Source: a virus
Taxonomy: Duplodnaviria; Heunggongvirae; Uroviricota; Caudoviricetes
Length of the DNA stretch: 64,000 bases
Strand: one strand, 5' to 3'
IMG/VR virus record: IMGVR_UViG_3300027320_000003
Coordinates: 6,192-70,191 of that record
Under the pieces are notes generated by a model. The model had not been told where the DNA came from, made no database searches, and worked only from the letters and a program-made list of their open reading frames with translations. Below, in pieces: positions 12,304-26,804 of the stretch (positions are counted from its first letter, which is position 1; each line of letters begins with the position of its first letter). Made by a program: the position numbers and the translations under genes.

Positions 12304-12654
12304 ATGGGTACGGATAAACCACGCAACAATTTAACGGCCGACCAATTAGCTGTAGTAGAGGGTATAGGCATACTTGACCTAGCTGTGGATGTCGTCATAA
12401 ACAGTGCTGGAGACATCCTGTTCACGGTAGAGAATAGACGATACTACCTAGGCATGCTCAAGAATGGAAAGATACACTTCCTACAGAGATGGGTGGTAGG
12501 ACGGAACGCTGTAGAAACCGATGGCCATACCACCTATGTTAATATTGGCATGCCACGTGCCTCCGGAGATATAGCCATGGATATGGTGGTAGAGAGCGTC
12601 CGTGCCATGATATTCCCGGGGGTGGCCGCTGACCTCGAGATTATGACTGAGTAG
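12304..12654 (+). CDS. Tagged-module family protein (ends IFPGVAADLEIMTE*)
   Basis: GTTCT-N6-ATG start at 12304; C-terminal P-x3-A-x3-hh-x-E. Confidence 0.65.
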   Translation: MGTDKPRNNLTADQLAVVEGIGILDLAVDVVINSAGDILFTVENRRYYLGMLKNGKIHFLQRWVVGRNAVETDGHTTYVNIGMPRASGDIAMDMVVESVRAMIFPGVAADLEIMTE

Positions 12655-12657
12655 CCT

Positions 12658-12840
12658 ATGGAACTGGCCTACAGAGTACGTTACACGGCCGGCAGTAGGG
12701 AGCATGCCAGGCGAGGCACGGTTTGGGCCTATACACCACGGCAGGGTATGATCCGACTGGTGCGGGTGTTACGGAGATACCGACATGAGGGTCAGGTGGT
12801 GGTTATACATGGGATAGATTTGGTGATAGTTAGTCCGTGA
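12658..12840 (+). CDS. Small hypothetical protein
   Basis: 60-aa ORF; GTGA overlap with next gene. Confidence 0.5.
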   Translation: MELAYRVRYTAGSREHARRGTVWAYTPRQGMIRLVRVLRRYRHEGQVVVIHGIDLVIVSP

Positions 12841-13556
12841 ACAAGAATGAATGGATAGGTCATTATGTGAAGAGATACGCCGTGGAGGCCCATGTATCAC
12901 TGGGGGTTGCGGATACCGAGCTACGGATAATCTATGATGAGATGTATGCTTTTTTGGCCACGGATGATGGTGGCATGGGGTTAGGTAGGGCTGGGGCCTC
13001 GGAGTTACTGGCCGATAGGAATCTGTCCATGGATCTAATCCGTTACGTCAGAGATGTGTATGGTACGGCTAAGGACATGGTTGATGCATTCAATGATGGT
13101 GGTGATGCTCCGCAGGCCTACAACCTAGACAGCACAGGGTGGGCCTTTATATTACCCTATGTGGAGCGGTATCATGGTAGAAAGGCGGATGATTCGGTTA
13201 TGTCGGAGTCAGCAGGCAAGTACCGGATAACAGAGAAGAACGTTGGCCCTGCACGTTGGAGGACACTTGGTTGGCTTGGGTTACAGGACAAATGCATATA
13301 CCACGGCAAAGTTTCACCAAAGCCACGCGACACCATAATATCAGTGCAGTTCAAGGTCGGCGGAAATTACTACCGGTTAAGGCTTATGCACCACGGCCAG
13401 GTGTTAATGATGTACGCATATAGGGATTTACTCTGGCAGGCAGTGACAGGTTACCGCCCGTCAGACGAGGAAGTATTCGCTATTTTACACCCTGGTGAAG
13501 CCGCTAATAGCGAGATTATGGCTGAGGCCCTAGTCCAGAGGTATCTAAACCGCTAG
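12837..13556 (+). CDS. Two-module tagged-family protein
   Basis: Internal KADDSVMSE|S and C-terminal LHPGEAANSEIMAE|ALVQRYLNR*. Confidence 0.7.
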   Translation: MNKNEWIGHYVKRYAVEAHVSLGVADTELRIIYDEMYAFLATDDGGMGLGRAGASELLADRNLSMDLIRYVRDVYGTAKDMVDAFNDGGDAPQAYNLDSTGWAFILPYVERYHGRKADDSVMSESAGKYRITEKNVGPARWRTLGWLGLQDKCIYHGKVSPKPRDTIISVQFKVGGNYYRLRLMHHGQVLMMYAYRDLLWQAVTGYRPSDEEVFAILHPGEAANSEIMAEALVQRYLNR

Positions 13557-13581
13557 GTCGTGATTTGTGGTTCTATGGAGG

Positions 13582-13881
13582 ATGAAGCTTATTATCAAAT
13601 ATGTGTCCAAGGAACTACTGGACAGTCTCGGAGTTACCGGGTTAAATTACATCTATAGTCCAACAACCAAGGTTGGCGATAGGCTGTATATCTGTTGCGT
13701 TCGCAGATTCGGTGGAGTTGCTGACCTGCTAAAGTACATCCGTGAGCAGGTTGGTGATCTATACATTCTTGACATAGTACGGCCAGACATCAACGCTATT
13801 ATTCCCGAGGTATCTAGCCAGGAGGAAGGTGTCAATTATTACATGTCCTGTTTTACCGTTAAGGGTACACCGTCCAAATAG
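13582..13881 (+). CDS. Hypothetical protein
   Basis: ORF with GGAGG SD before ATG 13582. Confidence 0.55.
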   Translation: MKLIIKYVSKELLDSLGVTGLNYIYSPTTKVGDRLYICCVRRFGGVADLLKYIREQVGDLYILDIVRPDINAIIPEVSSQEEGVNYYMSCFTVKGTPSK

Positions 13882-13920
13882 GCCTGCTTTCCATGCGACG
13901 GACGCGATGTACTCTACCGT

Positions 13921-14247
13921 ATGACAGAGAACATGGAACGGCTGAGTTGCCTCAGCAAGGAGCAGTACGACACAGTACGTGCATGCGGTATCCTAGAGGC
14001 AACGGACGTCACGGTTGAGATGACGGGAGAGTTTGCGAACGTTTATTTCACGGCCGTAACGGAGCAGCACTATCTCTTCGTCAGCAAGCGTGGTGGGATA
14101 CTCGCCCTATATAGGTGGCCAACGTCACCGGATGAGTACTGGGATAAACCGCACTGGCAAATCGTAACCGTAAAAGATAGCGCGGCTGATATCAAGTTGC
14201 ACCTCTTCCCATGGTTAGCAGCCAACGAGGCATTGTTAAATGAGTGA
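13921..14247 (+). CDS. Tagged-module family protein (LFPWLAANEALLNE*)
   Basis: TTTCCA 13888-93, N16, TACTCT, N5, ATG; tag. Confidence 0.7.
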   Translation: MTENMERLSCLSKEQYDTVRACGILEATDVTVEMTGEFANVYFTAVTEQHYLFVSKRGGILALYRWPTSPDEYWDKPHWQIVTVKDSAADIKLHLFPWLAANEALLNE

Positions 14248-24933: not shown

Positions 24934-25260
24934 TAGCGTGAGGTTAGCAGCCAACTCAGGGTTGATCACCGGCAGAATGCTGCCTATTATCGCCTTCGCT
25001 CCATCGCGCATTGGTACATTCGCGGTGTGTATAACCGCGAGACGGTAAACTGGACGATGCCATTCGCTTTGCATTTGGCCTCGACGTAATGTAACAAAGT
25101 ATTGATACCACCGTTCACTGTTCTCGACGTTTACTCTATACAACGATCCGCTGAAATAGAACTCCGCCCAGAAATCTTCCTCCGCGCGCACCGTGATGGC
25201 GATGCGCTCGGCGCCAAAATTCTTTAGTCCAAGCTCCATGTCATCCGTCAGCGCTATCAT
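24922..25260 (-). CDS. Tagged-module family protein (INPELAANLTLLDE*)
   Basis: Minus-strand class A promoter (TTTCCA 25294-89, TATTCT 25272-67, N6, ATG 25260); tag. Confidence 0.7.
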   Translation of the reverse strand: MIALTDDMELGLKNFGAERIAITVRAEEDFWAEFYFSGSLYRVNVENSERWYQYFVTLRRGQMQSEWHRPVYRLAVIHTANVPMRDGAKAIIGSILPVINPELAANLTLLDE

Positions 25261-25334
25261 AGGTGGAGAATACACGGGCCAGGACCCATGGAAAGACTCT
25301 CTTTCCACACGGCGCCTATGGTGTACTCTACGAT

Positions 25335-25697
25335 ATGCAATATCGTGTAAATCATATCGCGGCTCATGGCATCAAATGCCGGATGAGTGAAAGTGCTAGG
25401 AATAAGATCGGTGTTAAACCTGGACAGAGTGTCTCCATCACCATTGGAAATCAGAGATTGGTTCGCGAGGTGTCAAGAATACCGGCTGAGCTCCTTGAAA
25501 TTTGCTCGAGGAGAGGATGTGGAGATATTCTAGACGGCACAGTTATTCTACCCACGTCAGTTCTTCAGGCGCTTGGAATAGAACCTGGTGACTTTGTTGA
25601 TGTTAAGCCAGTGGTATCACTGGAGCACCCATCTACGAGAAGCCGGTTGGTCTCGCGGTTGAAGCTTAGTGCAGGCAAAATTAAGGCGTTGAAATGA
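25335..25697 (+). CDS. Small beta-barrel protein (AbrB/double-psi-like repeats)
   Basis: Two related units KIGVKPGQSVSI and ALGIEPGDFVDV; class A promoter, ATG 25335. Confidence 0.5.
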   Translation: MQYRVNHIAAHGIKCRMSESARNKIGVKPGQSVSITIGNQRLVREVSRIPAELLEICSRRGCGDILDGTVILPTSVLQALGIEPGDFVDVKPVVSLEHPSTRSRLVSRLKLSAGKIKALK

Positions 25698-25900
25698 ATT
25701 TCATCCGCAGAATGTTTTGCAAACACAATTGGTTTTTTGTCCGTGAGTGGACGGAGTGGAAGCAGGACACTCACAACGAGTTGCACATCTATGTATGCAC
25801 GACGTGCGGTGCACAAAAACGAGACGTCGTAGCCACGGTTAAGACGTTCGCTGAGGTTGATAAGCAAATTTCGACTATAAAGAACATGAATAAATTATGA
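25694..25900 (+). CDS. Small Cys/His phage protein (DUF1660-like)
   Basis: MFCKHNW...CTTCG. Confidence 0.55.
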   Translation: MNFIRRMFCKHNWFFVREWTEWKQDTHNELHIYVCTTCGAQKRDVVATVKTFAEVDKQISTIKNMNKL

Positions 25901-25909
25901 GGATCCCAT

Positions 25910-26452
25910 ATGCCAGCACGCCAACAACCACGAAGAATCGAGTGTACCACCGCCGCCATACGGATGGCCCAGTATTCAGCGCACCAGCAGCCACGAATAA
26001 TTGGTCAGACCACCGCGGATGCAACGAGGATCGCTCCACTATTTGACACTATGGCATCAAATATACAGGGCTATAGTCCAGACGGTAATAAGCAAATCAT
26101 CCAGTATCACTCCCTCACCGCAGACAACCTCGCCAGCGTGCTTACGCGCGATTGGCTACGAGCCACAGGTGAGGAGTTACGGGACGACAAGCTACACCCG
26201 ATAAGAACGCAGGGATGTGCATGGTTCTGTGAGGTTGAGGGCGACGGTGGTCGGTGGTTCATATCCATCGATATTGTCATAGATCTTGGGCCTGGTCCAA
26301 ATAACATGTGCACCAAGCTAGTCACAAACCTGCGCCGCAAGGATGGTGAGTTGCTCTACGTCCTAGAGGTTTGGAAGTCTAACGCTGAGGAGATCCTAAA
26401 GAAGATTAGACCAAGGATGATGGCCGAGGCAGCACTAATGGCGGAGGCATAA
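25910..26452 (+). CDS. Tagged-module family protein (IRPRMMAEAALMAE|A*)
   Basis: ORF with SD; tag. Confidence 0.65.
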   Translation: MPARQQPRRIECTTAAIRMAQYSAHQQPRIIGQTTADATRIAPLFDTMASNIQGYSPDGNKQIIQYHSLTADNLASVLTRDWLRATGEELRDDKLHPIRTQGCAWFCEVEGDGGRWFISIDIVIDLGPGPNNMCTKLVTNLRRKDGELLYVLEVWKSNAEEILKKIRPRMMAEAALMAEA

Positions 26453-26453
26453 C

Positions 26454-26804
26454 GTGCCAGATCTTCGACCATGGTTCAATCTAGTTTGGAGCATGATACC
26501 GCACTGTAAGCAGGACATGCATGAATTCCTTATTACCCAACGTGAAGACGATGCCAAGGTCTCCAGCGAAAGATTGGCGAAGCGCGTGACGATTGTTACC
26601 CGGAGAATCCGTGTAAGGGTCCATAAGGGCCAGTGGTCCATGGTGACCTCCATCTCAAATAGCGACAATACTGGCATGGAAACCTCAGAGACAGAGTTTG
26701 TCGCCAATGAAACCTCCGCAGACTCGTGGAAGCTGGAGGTGAACAAAGTCATTGCACTAGTCAACCCACGGGAATTAGCTGATGAAGCGATGCTTGAGGA
26801 ATAA
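26454..26804 (+). CDS. Tagged-module family protein (VNPRELADEAMLEE*)
   Basis: ORF; tag. Confidence 0.65.
   Translation: MPDLRPWFNLVWSMIPHCKQDMHEFLITQREDDAKVSSERLAKRVTIVTRRIRVRVHKGQWSMVTSISNSDNTGMETSETEFVANETSADSWKLEVNKVIALVNPRELADEAMLEE

What the first reader, a model, noticed from the sequence alone, without database searches (positions are those of the whole stretch)
12304..26804. Family of highly divergent ~100-aa modules sharing an exactly spaced C-terminal tag P-x3-A-x3-hh-x-E
Seen: 23 copies of the 14-residue tag across the window, e.g. IFPGVAADLEIMTE, LFPWLAANEALLNE, LDPGTEAQRSVIDE, LEPSESAETEVLTE, IDPERGANNAAMAE, INPELAANLTLLDE, VNPRELADEAMLEE. E is always at P+11 and A at P+4 in 22 of 23. 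Twelve stand-alone genes stop exactly at the E and a 13th ends EA*. The rest of each module is barely alignable (helix, 3-4 strands, helix). Partial tags also end unrelated cargos (10208, 10632, the LRR module of 36645, the N-domain of 12837). Established: T4 gp21 prohead protease cuts after (I/L)-x-E, and T4 internal proteins such as IPI are hypervariable, capsid-packaged anti-defence proteins. Inference: this is a conserved docking/packaging or cleavage tag on a diversified arsenal of effectors, a possible modular payload system. Caveat: some members follow class A (early-type) promoters, so the tag may instead dock onto a phage or host hub protein in the cell.
Basis: partly seen in the sequence, partly recalled or inferred. 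Interest (0 to 1): 0.88.

Follow-up and report, generated by a model that had tools for sequence, protein, structure and literature searches.

The report
Phage module family with cleavage-like C-terminal tag
An uncultured T4-like phage carries at least 34 copies of a fast-diverging ~110-residue protein module that always ends in one conserved helix finishing on a glutamate, which matches the cutting site of the phage's own head protease, so some copies are probably made as chains, loaded into the head and cut apart; no experiment has tested this.

Summary
The 14-residue tag occurs 23 times in the window and 34 times in the 173 kb I could assemble for this phage. Codon-shuffled genomes give about 3. 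A complete related phage has no C-terminal copy. Twelve genes stop exactly at the Glu.

The modules share one predicted fold: helix, five strands, helix, Pro kink, tag helix. Detectable sequence similarity between subfamilies is limited to the last ~27 residues. No relative turned up among 1.84 billion representative proteins or in five near-complete related phages.

New evidence:
- The record continues on another contig that encodes a T4 gp21-type (S77) prohead protease fused to a scaffold, a gp23 capsid protein and a seven-module protein.
- The tag ends [VIL][LMI]-x-E, followed by S/A/G/T in 17 of 21 internal cases. This matches the gp21-type site and the inferred capsid maturation site.
- Four tag-bearing proteins carry, after the Glu, a short LVxRL tail. 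It resembles the conserved C-terminus of the scaffold-protease.

Best reading (about 0.45): the multi-module proteins are head-targeted precursors cut at each tag, and the stand-alone genes encode the same end product directly. What the modules do is unknown. Packaging of the stand-alone copies and the 'effector arsenal' idea remain unproven.

The parts
12304..12654 (+). Stand-alone module A. Ends IMTE, stop TAG. GTTCT-N6-ATG box at the start.
12837..13556 (+). X domain (12837-13196), module B (13197-13526, ends IMAE) and post-Glu tail ALVQRYLNR. A late-type GATAGTTAG box lies 4 nt before the GTG start.
13921..14247 (+). Stand-alone module C. Ends LLNE. Its TGA stop overlaps the ATG of module D.
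14240..14602 (+). Stand-alone module D. Ends VIDE. Its stop overlaps the ATG of module E.
14595..14972 (+). Stand-alone module E. Ends IMDE.
14959..15270 (+). Stand-alone module F. Ends ISQE. The start is uncertain: probably the TTG at 14959, which I placed by reading the frame by hand and did not check in a script; it overlaps the end of E.
15320..16036 (+). Module G, a paralog of B, interrupted by an in-frame TAA at 15377-15379. Its tag ELLSE (to 15586) is followed directly by a second copy of the X domain (15587-16036). The domain order is swapped relative to 12837.
17795..18229 (+). Stand-alone module H. Ends VLTE.
18778..19125 (+). Stand-alone module I. Ends IIVE.
22263..22595 (+). Stand-alone module J. 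Ends IVGE.
22895..23245 (+). Stand-alone module K. Ends AMAE. In frame with L across TAA-CTT.
23249..23602 (+). Stand-alone module L. Ends ILAE, stop TAG.
24922..25260 (-). Stand-alone module M. Ends LLDE.
25964..26452 (+). Stand-alone module N. Ends LMAE-A, one residue past the Glu.
26454..26804 (+). Stand-alone module O. Ends MLEE.
29073..30116 (-). Three-module protein. Tags end at 29769, 29424 and 29115. Post-Glu tail AKRLVKKLLQNLN.
52783..54729 (+). Five-module protein. Tags end at 53103, 53418, 53754, 54123 and 54459. A 90-residue tail contains AQDLVDRLL. Probably co-transcribed with 52386, which has a late-type TAGTTAA box.
10208..11087 (+). Two genes (10208-10639 and 10632-11087) that end in the half tag A-x3-hh-x-E (ELLGE, ILSE) without the Pro. 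Possible distant members.
37662..37685 (-). Tag-like junction AVDSVLGE|SS between the LRR and SWIM parts of the 502-residue protein 36645-38153.
56250..57377 (+). 375-residue protein with the LVEKLL helix at its N-terminus (residues 6-11).

Best explanation
The tag is the last helix of a lineage-specific, very fast-diverging alpha/beta module. Its final residues, [VIL][LMI]-x-E, also serve as a cutting site for the phage's own T4 gp21-type (S77) prohead protease.

Five proteins carry tags followed by more sequence: those with 5, 3 and 7 modules, and two of the form domain + module. Each also has, after the last Glu, a short amphipathic LVxRL peptide like the one that ends the scaffold-protease. 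(In the five-module protein it lies inside a longer tail.) This peptide would bring them into the assembling head. The protease would then cut after every tag Glu, removing the anchor and releasing single ~12-kDa modules.

The stand-alone genes, several of them in stop/start-overlapping strings, encode the same end product directly, with the stop codon where the protease would cut.

Shown here: the family, the tag statistics, the predicted fold, the protease, the tail motif and its conservation on the scaffold-protease.
Inferred: cleavage, head targeting, and any link between the packaged and the free copies.
Not known: what the modules bind or do. A set of diversified binders delivered with the DNA and/or made in the cell is my guess.
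For: 1. The record continues on ENA contig k141_136687. Its overlap with the record is 100% identical over three genes, and a 300-nt exact end match let me join the two. The continuation encodes three relevant proteins:
   - a 548-residue protein whose residues 43-198 match Peptidase_S77 (E 5e-20) and T4 gp21 structure 5JBL (E 1.6e-10);
   - a Gp23 capsid protein;
   - the 824-residue seven-module protein P0007.
2. Tag logo: -2 is L/M/I/V in 33 of 34 copies and the last residue is E in 34 of 34. The residue after the Glu, where there is one, is S/A/G/T in 17 of 21 cases. From my own knowledge, T4 gp21 cuts after L/I-x-E. The related giant-phage protease cuts after A-x-E and removes its own C-terminal propeptide (PMC10052503).
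3. The capsid protein has an invariant Glu82 in G-x-(L/M)-D-E|(S/V)-T-R-T across 20 relatives. It lies where T4 gp23 is matured, as I recall the T4 sequence.
4. The tail motif L[VI]x[RK][LAY][LA] gives only 6 hits in open frames of 80 residues or more. Three sit 2-4 residues from a C-terminus directly after a tag Glu; the other three are the five-module protein's tail, the N-terminus of 56250 and the scaffold-protease C-terminus. A looser scan adds P0007, which also ends in the tail just after a tag Glu.
5. Thirty-four scaffold-protease homologues from related phages nearly all end h-x-E|[SA]-x-x-[LM]-V-x-R-L-S.
6. 12837 and the operon containing 52783 sit behind the same (G/A)TAGTTA box as the baseplate genes.
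7. [ILVM]-x-E inside the multi-module bodies is depleted: 13 observed against 24.3 expected (P 0.001). Stand-alone bodies give 20 against 23.4, and other genes of the phage have a ratio of 1.18.
Against: - There is no proteomic, expression or biochemical evidence at all. The phage is uncultured and its host is unknown.
- hh-x-E is a short motif, and amphipathic helices often end that way.
- The stricter motif [VILM][LMIV]-x-E is not depleted inside the multi-module proteins (6 observed against 6.2 expected). The depletion result therefore depends on how the motif is defined. The difference between multi-module and stand-alone sets (13 against 20) does not look significant by my rough estimate; I ran no formal test.
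- All modules are acidic (pI 4.2-6.3), unlike T4 internal proteins, which I recall as basic.
- Cleavage cannot explain why the stand-alone copies keep P, A and E invariant, so the tag must have a second role, structural or binding.
- Three membrane-anchored proteins also carry the tag, and such proteins are unlikely capsid cargo.
Confidence: 0.45

Rival explanations
1. The tag is only a structural hallmark. It is the closing helix of a lineage-specific domain: Pro caps the helix, Ala and the two hydrophobic residues pack on the sheet, and Glu caps or salt-bridges. A charged last residue might also protect a hydrophobic C-terminus from host C-terminal proteolysis. On this reading the multi-module proteins are ordinary uncut tandem-domain proteins, and the resemblance to a gp21 site is coincidental. 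All copies would act in the infected cell, for example as host-takeover or anti-defence binders.
For: - AlphaFold models place the tag as a confident final helix after a Pro kink (last blocks pLDDT 74-85 and 68-81).
- The conserved unit is 27 residues, the preceding helix plus the tag, and not just the site.
- Stand-alone copies conserve the tag although nothing follows it.
- The modules are acidic, like many early phage proteins.
- The strict site is not depleted inside the multi-module proteins.
Against: - Invariance of P, A and a terminal E in a family with mean column identity of 15% is more than packing usually demands.
- Stops fall exactly after the Glu in 12 of 13 stand-alone genes in the window.
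- Small residues follow the Glu at 17 of 21 junctions.
- Four proteins add a scaffold-like tail right after the Glu.
- An S77 protease with a matching site class is encoded by the same phage.
Confidence: 0.3
2. The tag is a portable docking or cargo-loading peptide. Its helix binds one common partner: the scaffold core, the inner capsid surface or the protease. All tagged proteins, including the stand-alone ones, would then be loaded into the head and injected. This would work like the T4 capsid-targeting sequence or an encapsulin cargo-loading peptide, but at the C-terminus. It is the first reader's main reading.
For: - The tag, not the body, is the conserved part.
- Its last eight residues resemble the terminal LVEKLL-x-E peptides found on small proteins of a related phage, and, as I recall it, the T4 targeting sequence, which ends FIAE.
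- T4 internal proteins are described as a diverse defence set sharing only a targeting sequence (PMC3012670).
- The giant phage SPN3US has a 20-member paralog family of head proteins (PMC5694885).
Against: - The stand-alone copies lack the LVxRL tail that the multi-module proteins share with the scaffold.
- The modules are acidic.
- Three tagged proteins are membrane-anchored.
- Expression class is unresolved.
- Nothing shows that these proteins are in virions.
Confidence: 0.17
3. The tag is a ligation handle. Its free C-terminal glutamate would be joined to amines on target proteins by the phage's Amidoligase_2 enzymes and removed by its GGACT-type cyclotransferase, in the manner of Pup. The multi-module proteins would play the role of polyubiquitin-like precursors.
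For: - The terminal Glu is invariant, precursors are tandem, and some copies carry one or two extra residues (EA*, ES*, EEHR*).
- Three Amidoligase_2 genes, a GGACT and a class-II amidotransferase lie at window 60538-65031.
- An M20/M28-like exopeptidase sits next to the array at 26839-27603.
Against: - The same amidoligase genes occur in 2 of 5 related phages that have no tagged family.
- The modules are folded, diverse and about twice the size of Pup.
- There is no GG-E/Q motif.
- Nothing links the two gene sets apart from being in one genome.
Confidence: 0.03

Closest known systems
T4 internal proteins (IPI, IPII, IPIII, Alt) with their capsid-targeting sequence, cut by gp21
   Same: The phage has a T4-type head: Portal_T4, Gp23 and a Peptidase_S77 protease. 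A short amphipathic peptide ends in hydrophobic-hydrophobic-x-Glu and is shared by otherwise very divergent small proteins. T4 internal proteins are likewise described as a diverse set sharing only the targeting sequence (PMC3012670, PMC5694885).
   Different: The T4 signal is an N-terminal ~10-residue peptide that is cut off. Here the tag is C-terminal, is part of a folded domain and would stay on the product. The putative anchor (LVxRL) lies after the site. The modules are acidic, come as chains of 3-7 units and show no sequence similarity to any T4 internal protein.
Processed head proteins and head paralog families of giant phages (SPN3US, phiKZ)
   Same: These phages have large families of diverged paralogous head proteins (20 members in SPN3US family B). 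Processing follows a small x-E motif, and the protease loses a C-terminal propeptide (PMC5694885, PMC10052503).
   Different: A Pfam scan of ten family members gave no significant match to any Pfam family, which includes PF12699. In the giant phages propeptides are N-terminal and long. No tandem multi-module precursors and no exact stop-at-Glu rule were mentioned in the passages I read.
T4 gp22 and scaffold C-termini that bind the shell; scaffold-protease fusions
   Same: The 548-residue protease plus coiled-coil protein ends in a conserved h-x-E|S-x-x-LVxRL peptide across 34 related phages. The same peptide ends four tag-bearing proteins.
   Different: The binding partner of this tail has not been identified. 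Borrowing a scaffold tail for accessory cargo is my inference.
Encapsulin cargo-loading peptides
   Same: The concept is shared: a short conserved C-terminal peptide on diverse cargo that docks inside an HK97-fold shell.
   Different: There is no sequence similarity, no shown binding, and the peptide here belongs to a folded domain. This is an analogy only, and it rests on my own knowledge.

Membership tests
Substrates of T4 gp21-type (S77) prohead protease | An S77 protease is encoded by the same phage | tested here: met
   Pfam Peptidase_S77 at E 5e-20. T4 gp21 structure 5JBL at E 1.6e-10, with residues that align in the EHP and SSRG segments, where I recall the catalytic His and Ser. The gene lies on the contig that continues the record; the overlap is 100% identical.
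Substrates of T4 gp21-type (S77) prohead protease | Site with Glu at P1 and an aliphatic residue at P3 | tested here: met
   E in 34 of 34 copies and L/M/I/V at -2 in 33 of 34. The following residue is S/A/G/T in 17 of 21 cases. The T4 site rule comes from my own knowledge.
Substrates of T4 gp21-type (S77) prohead protease | The protein is inside the prohead and is observed to be cut | not testable with these tools
T4 internal proteins / capsid-targeting sequence | N-terminal ~10-residue targeting peptide removed by cleavage | tested here: not met
   The conserved element is C-terminal in every member. Only 56250 has an N-terminal LVEKLL peptide.
T4 internal proteins / capsid-targeting sequence | Sequence or profile similarity to IPI, IPII or IPIII | tested here: not met
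   No Pfam or PHROG match for any module. No structural match above the noise range.
Giant-phage inner-body / head paralog families (PF12699 and SPN3US family B) | Match to PF12699 or to those proteins | tested here: not met
   A Pfam scan of ten members gave no significant match. A BFVD fold search found nothing below E 0.02.
Encapsulin-type cargo-loading peptide | The peptide binds the inner face of the HK97-fold shell protein | tested here: inconclusive
   The only complex job (capsid protein plus last module and tail) returned no verdict.
Pup-like C-terminal Glu modifiers | Disordered small protein ending GG-Q/E, with a PafA/Dop-type ligase | tested here: not met
   The modules are folded (pLDDT 79-86) and no GG precedes the Glu. 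Amidoligase_2 genes are present, but they also occur in relatives that lack the family.

The most novel reading that the evidence does not exclude
This phage has evolved a C-terminal cargo system for its head. A 27-residue helical unit ending in Glu acts both as a docking peptide and as a protease site, and a scaffold-derived LVxRL tail acts as the anchor. More than 30 fast-diverging binder modules would then be loaded, cut to size and injected with the DNA as a pre-made counter-defence set, while free copies of the same modules are made in the cell.
Probability: 0.15. Interest if true: 0.85.

Novelty: new variant of a known kind. Interest (0 to 1): 0.62.

Why it matters
If the reading holds, it shows three things. 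First, a T4-type head can be loaded through C-terminal signals. Second, a scaffold tail can be borrowed to recruit accessory cargo. Third, one phage lineage can expand a new small domain to about 7% of its assembled sequence in two delivery forms: a chain cut in the head, and free genes. It would also supply a compact tag and tail pair for packaging foreign proteins into T4-like capsids. Even if only the structural reading is right, this remains a striking case of a large gene family confined, as far as current databases show, to a single phage lineage.

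Tried and rejected
- **Family libraries.** Pfam and PHROGs scans of modules and neighbours found nothing for any module.
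- **Phage collections.** Megablast and tblastn against cultured phages found no relative of the region or of the five-module protein. An IMG/VR scan with the five-module protein found none.
- **Fold searches.** Foldseek against PDB, AlphaFold clusters and BFVD gave nothing below E 0.02. VIA-align reached a best Z of 7.5 (Med17C). A P1 head chain scored 6.6, and frataxin-like and type III chaperone-like sandwiches scored 4-5.5. All are in the tool's stated noise range. The ESM Atlas by shape and by features gave no lead.
- **Complex prediction.** The capsid protein with the last module plus tail of P0007 returned no verdict, and I count it neither way. I did not send protease-tag, amidoligase-tag or homo-oligomer jobs: only one job was allowed, and I judged that a pass would barely shift the odds.
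- **Strain comparison.** A test for diversifying selection was not possible. The copies from three samples are identical; 824 versus 847 residues is only a different start call.
- **ssrA mimicry.** The AAND-like core of the tag prompted the idea. No tmRNA is encoded and the host tag is unknown, so I dropped it.
- **TAG read-through.** Stops after the Glu are TAG in 7 of 13 cases, against 30% genome-wide. This looks like a weak enrichment; I ran no test on it.
- **Own-genome protease and capsid search.** The search for gp21 and gp23 was empty because those genes lie beyond the record's end.
- **Tool and paper access.** The Iyer et al. 2009 amidoligase paper was not held.

Full report
**1.

Reading all six frames, the strict pattern P-x3-A-x3-hh-x-E occurs 22 times in the window.
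- One hit, at 32424 on the minus strand, looks like chance.
- Two genuine copies miss the pattern by one residue: AISQE at 15267 and SSSAVMTE at 29424.

The whole 143,750-base record has 28 hits, against a mean of 3.1 (maximum 9) in 200 codon-shuffled genomes. Twelve genes end exactly on the Glu and a thirteenth ends EA.

As a natural control I fetched a complete related phage (G003, 224,954 bases). With the same crude gene caller it has no C-terminal tag and two genes ending hh-x-E. This phage has 11 and 16; the caller missed three members, so the true count of hh-x-E ends is 19.

**2. What the family is**

An alignment of 23 modules has a mean column identity of 15%. Only Pro and Glu are invariant, and Ala is nearly so.

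AlphaFold gave confident models for two subfamilies:
- Module 3 of the five-module protein: pLDDT 86, pTM 0.77. It has a helix, five strands, a helix, a Pro kink and a final helix that is the tag.
- The first module of the seven-module protein, modelled from an alignment of its own seven units: pLDDT 79, with the same order of elements.

Profile-profile comparison nevertheless aligns the two subfamilies only over the last 27 columns (probability 91%). The same holds for three membrane-anchored proteins outside the window (45%). The conserved unit is therefore the last helix pair, about 27 residues, on bodies that have diverged beyond recognition but keep one predicted topology.

Third-codon identity at identical tag residues is 0.40. 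Conservation is therefore selection on the protein and not gene conversion. Fold searches gave nothing above noise, and Pfam and PHROGs gave nothing.

**3. Distribution**

A profile of the 23 modules, searched against 1.84 billion representative proteins, found 17 proteins. Sixteen are the window's own. The seventeenth, P0007, has 824 residues and seven tagged modules.

P0007's contig overlaps the end of our record at 100% identity over three genes, and a 300-nt exact match allowed me to join them. It is therefore the same phage continuing past the record's end. Further fetches brought the assembled sequence to 173,445 bases. Copies from three samples are identical.

Related phages lack the family:
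- Five near-complete relatives (93-100% complete; the portal homologues in this set are 44-55% identical and the capsid homologues mostly 57-62%) have no match to the profile. The same search finds 23 matches in the own genome.
- About 60 loci flanking portal and capsid genes in relatives show only background hits to the tag pattern.

As far as these databases show, the family is confined to one lineage. I count 34 tags in the 173 kb.

**4. The new context: a T4-type head protease**

The continuation encodes a 548-residue protein. Residues 43-198 match Peptidase_S77 (E 5e-20) and T4 gp21 structure 5JBL (E 1.6e-10). Residues in the EHP and SSRG segments align, where I recall the catalytic His and Ser. 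The rest of the protein looks like a scaffold-like coiled coil from its sequence; I ran no coiled-coil prediction. A Gp23 capsid gene follows, and the window's 46756 gene is a T4-type portal.

From my own knowledge, T4 gp21 cuts after L/I-x-E. The related giant-phage enzyme cuts after A-x-E and removes its own C-terminal propeptide (PMC10052503).

The tag logo fits this site class:
- -3 is V/I/L/M.
- -2 is L/M/I/V in 33 of 34 copies.
- The last residue is Glu in 34 of 34.
- Where anything follows, it is S/A/G/T in 17 of 21 cases.

The capsid protein of this phage and 19 relatives has an invariant Glu82 in G-x-(L/M)-D-E|(S/V)-T-R-T. It sits where T4 gp23 is matured; the T4 position is from memory.

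**5. A second motif that I did not expect**

Wherever a tag is followed by a short C-terminal extension, that extension looks alike:
- AQCLVRRALGIA (P0007)
- AKRLVKKLLQNLN (29073)
- ALVQRYLNR (12837)
- SLVDRLLSV (a 239-residue protein at genome 115939-116658)

AQDLVDRLL also lies within the tail of the five-module protein.

A regex for this helix gives only six hits in open frames of 80 residues or more. Three are these C-terminal tails. The others are the five-module protein's tail, the N-terminus of 56250 and the C-terminus of the scaffold-protease itself (...SLDE|SMALVRRLAGVK). A looser scan also recovers the P0007 tail.

In 34 related phages the scaffold-protease ends the same way, h-x-E|[SA]-x-x-[LM]-V-x-R-L-S. 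The relative G003 has small open frames that begin M...LVEKLL-x-E, and one that ends E|ALVDRLLDS.

I read this as a clade-wide terminal peptide placed next to a protease site. The obvious role is anchoring to the assembling head until the protease cuts it off. That step is inference. The one complex prediction I could run returned no verdict.

**6. Putting it together**

The multi-module proteins have a protease-type site at every junction and a scaffold-like anchor after the last one. At least two sit behind the (G/A)TAGTTA box that also precedes baseplate genes: 12837, and the operon of 52386 and 52783.

Cutting them would give single modules with the same C-terminus as the stand-alone genes. 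Several stand-alone genes form strings whose stops overlap the next start: 13921, 14240, 14595 and 14959. These strings look like a chain divided by stop codons instead of by a protease.

A depletion test gave mixed results:

| Sequence set | Motif | Observed | Expected |
|---|---|---|---|
| Multi-module bodies | [ILVM]-x-E | 13 | 24.3 (P 0.001) |
| Stand-alone bodies | [ILVM]-x-E | 20 | 23.4 |
| Other genes of the phage | [ILVM]-x-E | ratio 1.18 | - |
| Multi-module bodies | two-hydrophobic form | 6 | 6.2 |

The stricter motif is not depleted, so the result depends on the motif definition. I did not formally test the difference between the two module sets; by rough estimate it is not significant.

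**7. What remains open**

Cleavage cannot explain why free copies keep Pro, Ala and Glu invariant, so the tag also has a structural or binding role. Other unresolved points:
- The modules are acidic (pI 4.2-6.3), unlike T4 internal proteins, which I recall as basic.
- Three tagged proteins have N-terminal membrane helices.
- I could not assign the stand-alone genes to a temporal class.
- Nothing indicates what the modules bind.

The 'arsenal of effectors' idea is therefore a plausible guess by analogy with T4 internal proteins (PMC3012670) and with the SPN3US head paralog families (PMC5694885), not a finding.

**8. A more exotic reading**

The phage has three Amidoligase_2 genes, a GGACT-type cyclotransferase and a class-II amidotransferase at 60538-65031. 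An M20/M28-like exopeptidase lies next to the array. A family ending in a free Glu, with tandem precursors and occasional extra residues, recalls Pup or ubiquitin. However, two of five relatives have the amidoligases without the family, and nothing else links the two. I give this about 3%.

**9. Verdict**

The cleavage-site idea gains support from the protease, the junction residues and the shared tail.
- Packaging of the stand-alone copies and their function remain unproven.
- Novelty: a new variant of a known kind (head-protein targeting and processing signals), carried by a protein family with no detectable relatives.

Noticed in passing
window 22815-22888 (+): ARAGORN finds a tRNA with anticodon CTA, which would read the amber codon UAG, inside the module array. 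TAG is the stop after the tag Glu in 7 of 13 stand-alone genes, against 30% of genes genome-wide. Read-through of A (12654) would run in frame into ORF 12658-12840, and read-through of L (23602) into gene 23621-24049.
   Followed up: partly
L001 / L003 (ENA ERZ27246579 contig k141_136687); genome 141557-143750: The IMG/VR record (CheckV completeness 67%) is incomplete. An ENA contig overlaps its end at 100% identity and adds at least 29.7 kb. The added sequence carries the S77 protease-scaffold fusion, Gp23, UvdE, baseplate J and the seven-module protein.
   Followed up: yes
window 60538-65031 (L005:730-5031): Cluster of three Amidoligase_2 genes, a GGACT-type gamma-glutamyl cyclotransferase and a class-II glutamine amidotransferase. 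Amidoligase_2 also occurs in multiple copies in 2 of 5 related phages.
   Followed up: partly
window 26839-27603 (+): An M20/M28/M42-like metallo-exopeptidase lies directly after the last stand-alone module. From my own knowledge, these families include glutamate carboxypeptidases, which is suggestive next to proteins that end in Glu.
   Followed up: no
G003 (complete relative) around 63602, 123202, 132898, 182996: Small open frames begin M...LVEKLL-x-E or end E|ALVDRLLDS. They are candidate terminal head-targeting peptides with an adjacent protease site in a phage that lacks the module family.
   Followed up: partly
window 12837-13556 and 15320-16036: The same two domains (X domain and module) occur in opposite order in two nearby genes (X domains: BLASTP E 5e-9). 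The second copy's module is broken by an in-frame TAA at 15377-15379, a sign of ongoing shuffling and decay in the array.
   Followed up: yes
whole assembled genome, e.g. window 3231, 12837, 20318, 31597, 36645, 52386, 57388: A start-proximal box (G/A)TAGTTA(A/T) lies 3-4 nt before the start codon of many structural genes, with variants GTAATTAA and GTACTTAA. A second box, GTTCT-N6-ATG, precedes the baseplate-hub and gp5-like genes and also module A and gene 10208. Few genes have a Shine-Dalgarno sequence.
   Followed up: partly
genome 131088-132517 (L067): Three consecutive small proteins have an N-terminal membrane helix and a tag at or within two residues of the C-terminus (EEHR*, EE*, ES*).
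   Followed up: partly
window 20215-20295 (+): ARAGORN calls an 81-nt tRNA-Thr (anticodon TGT). I did not check whether it is genuine.
   Followed up: no
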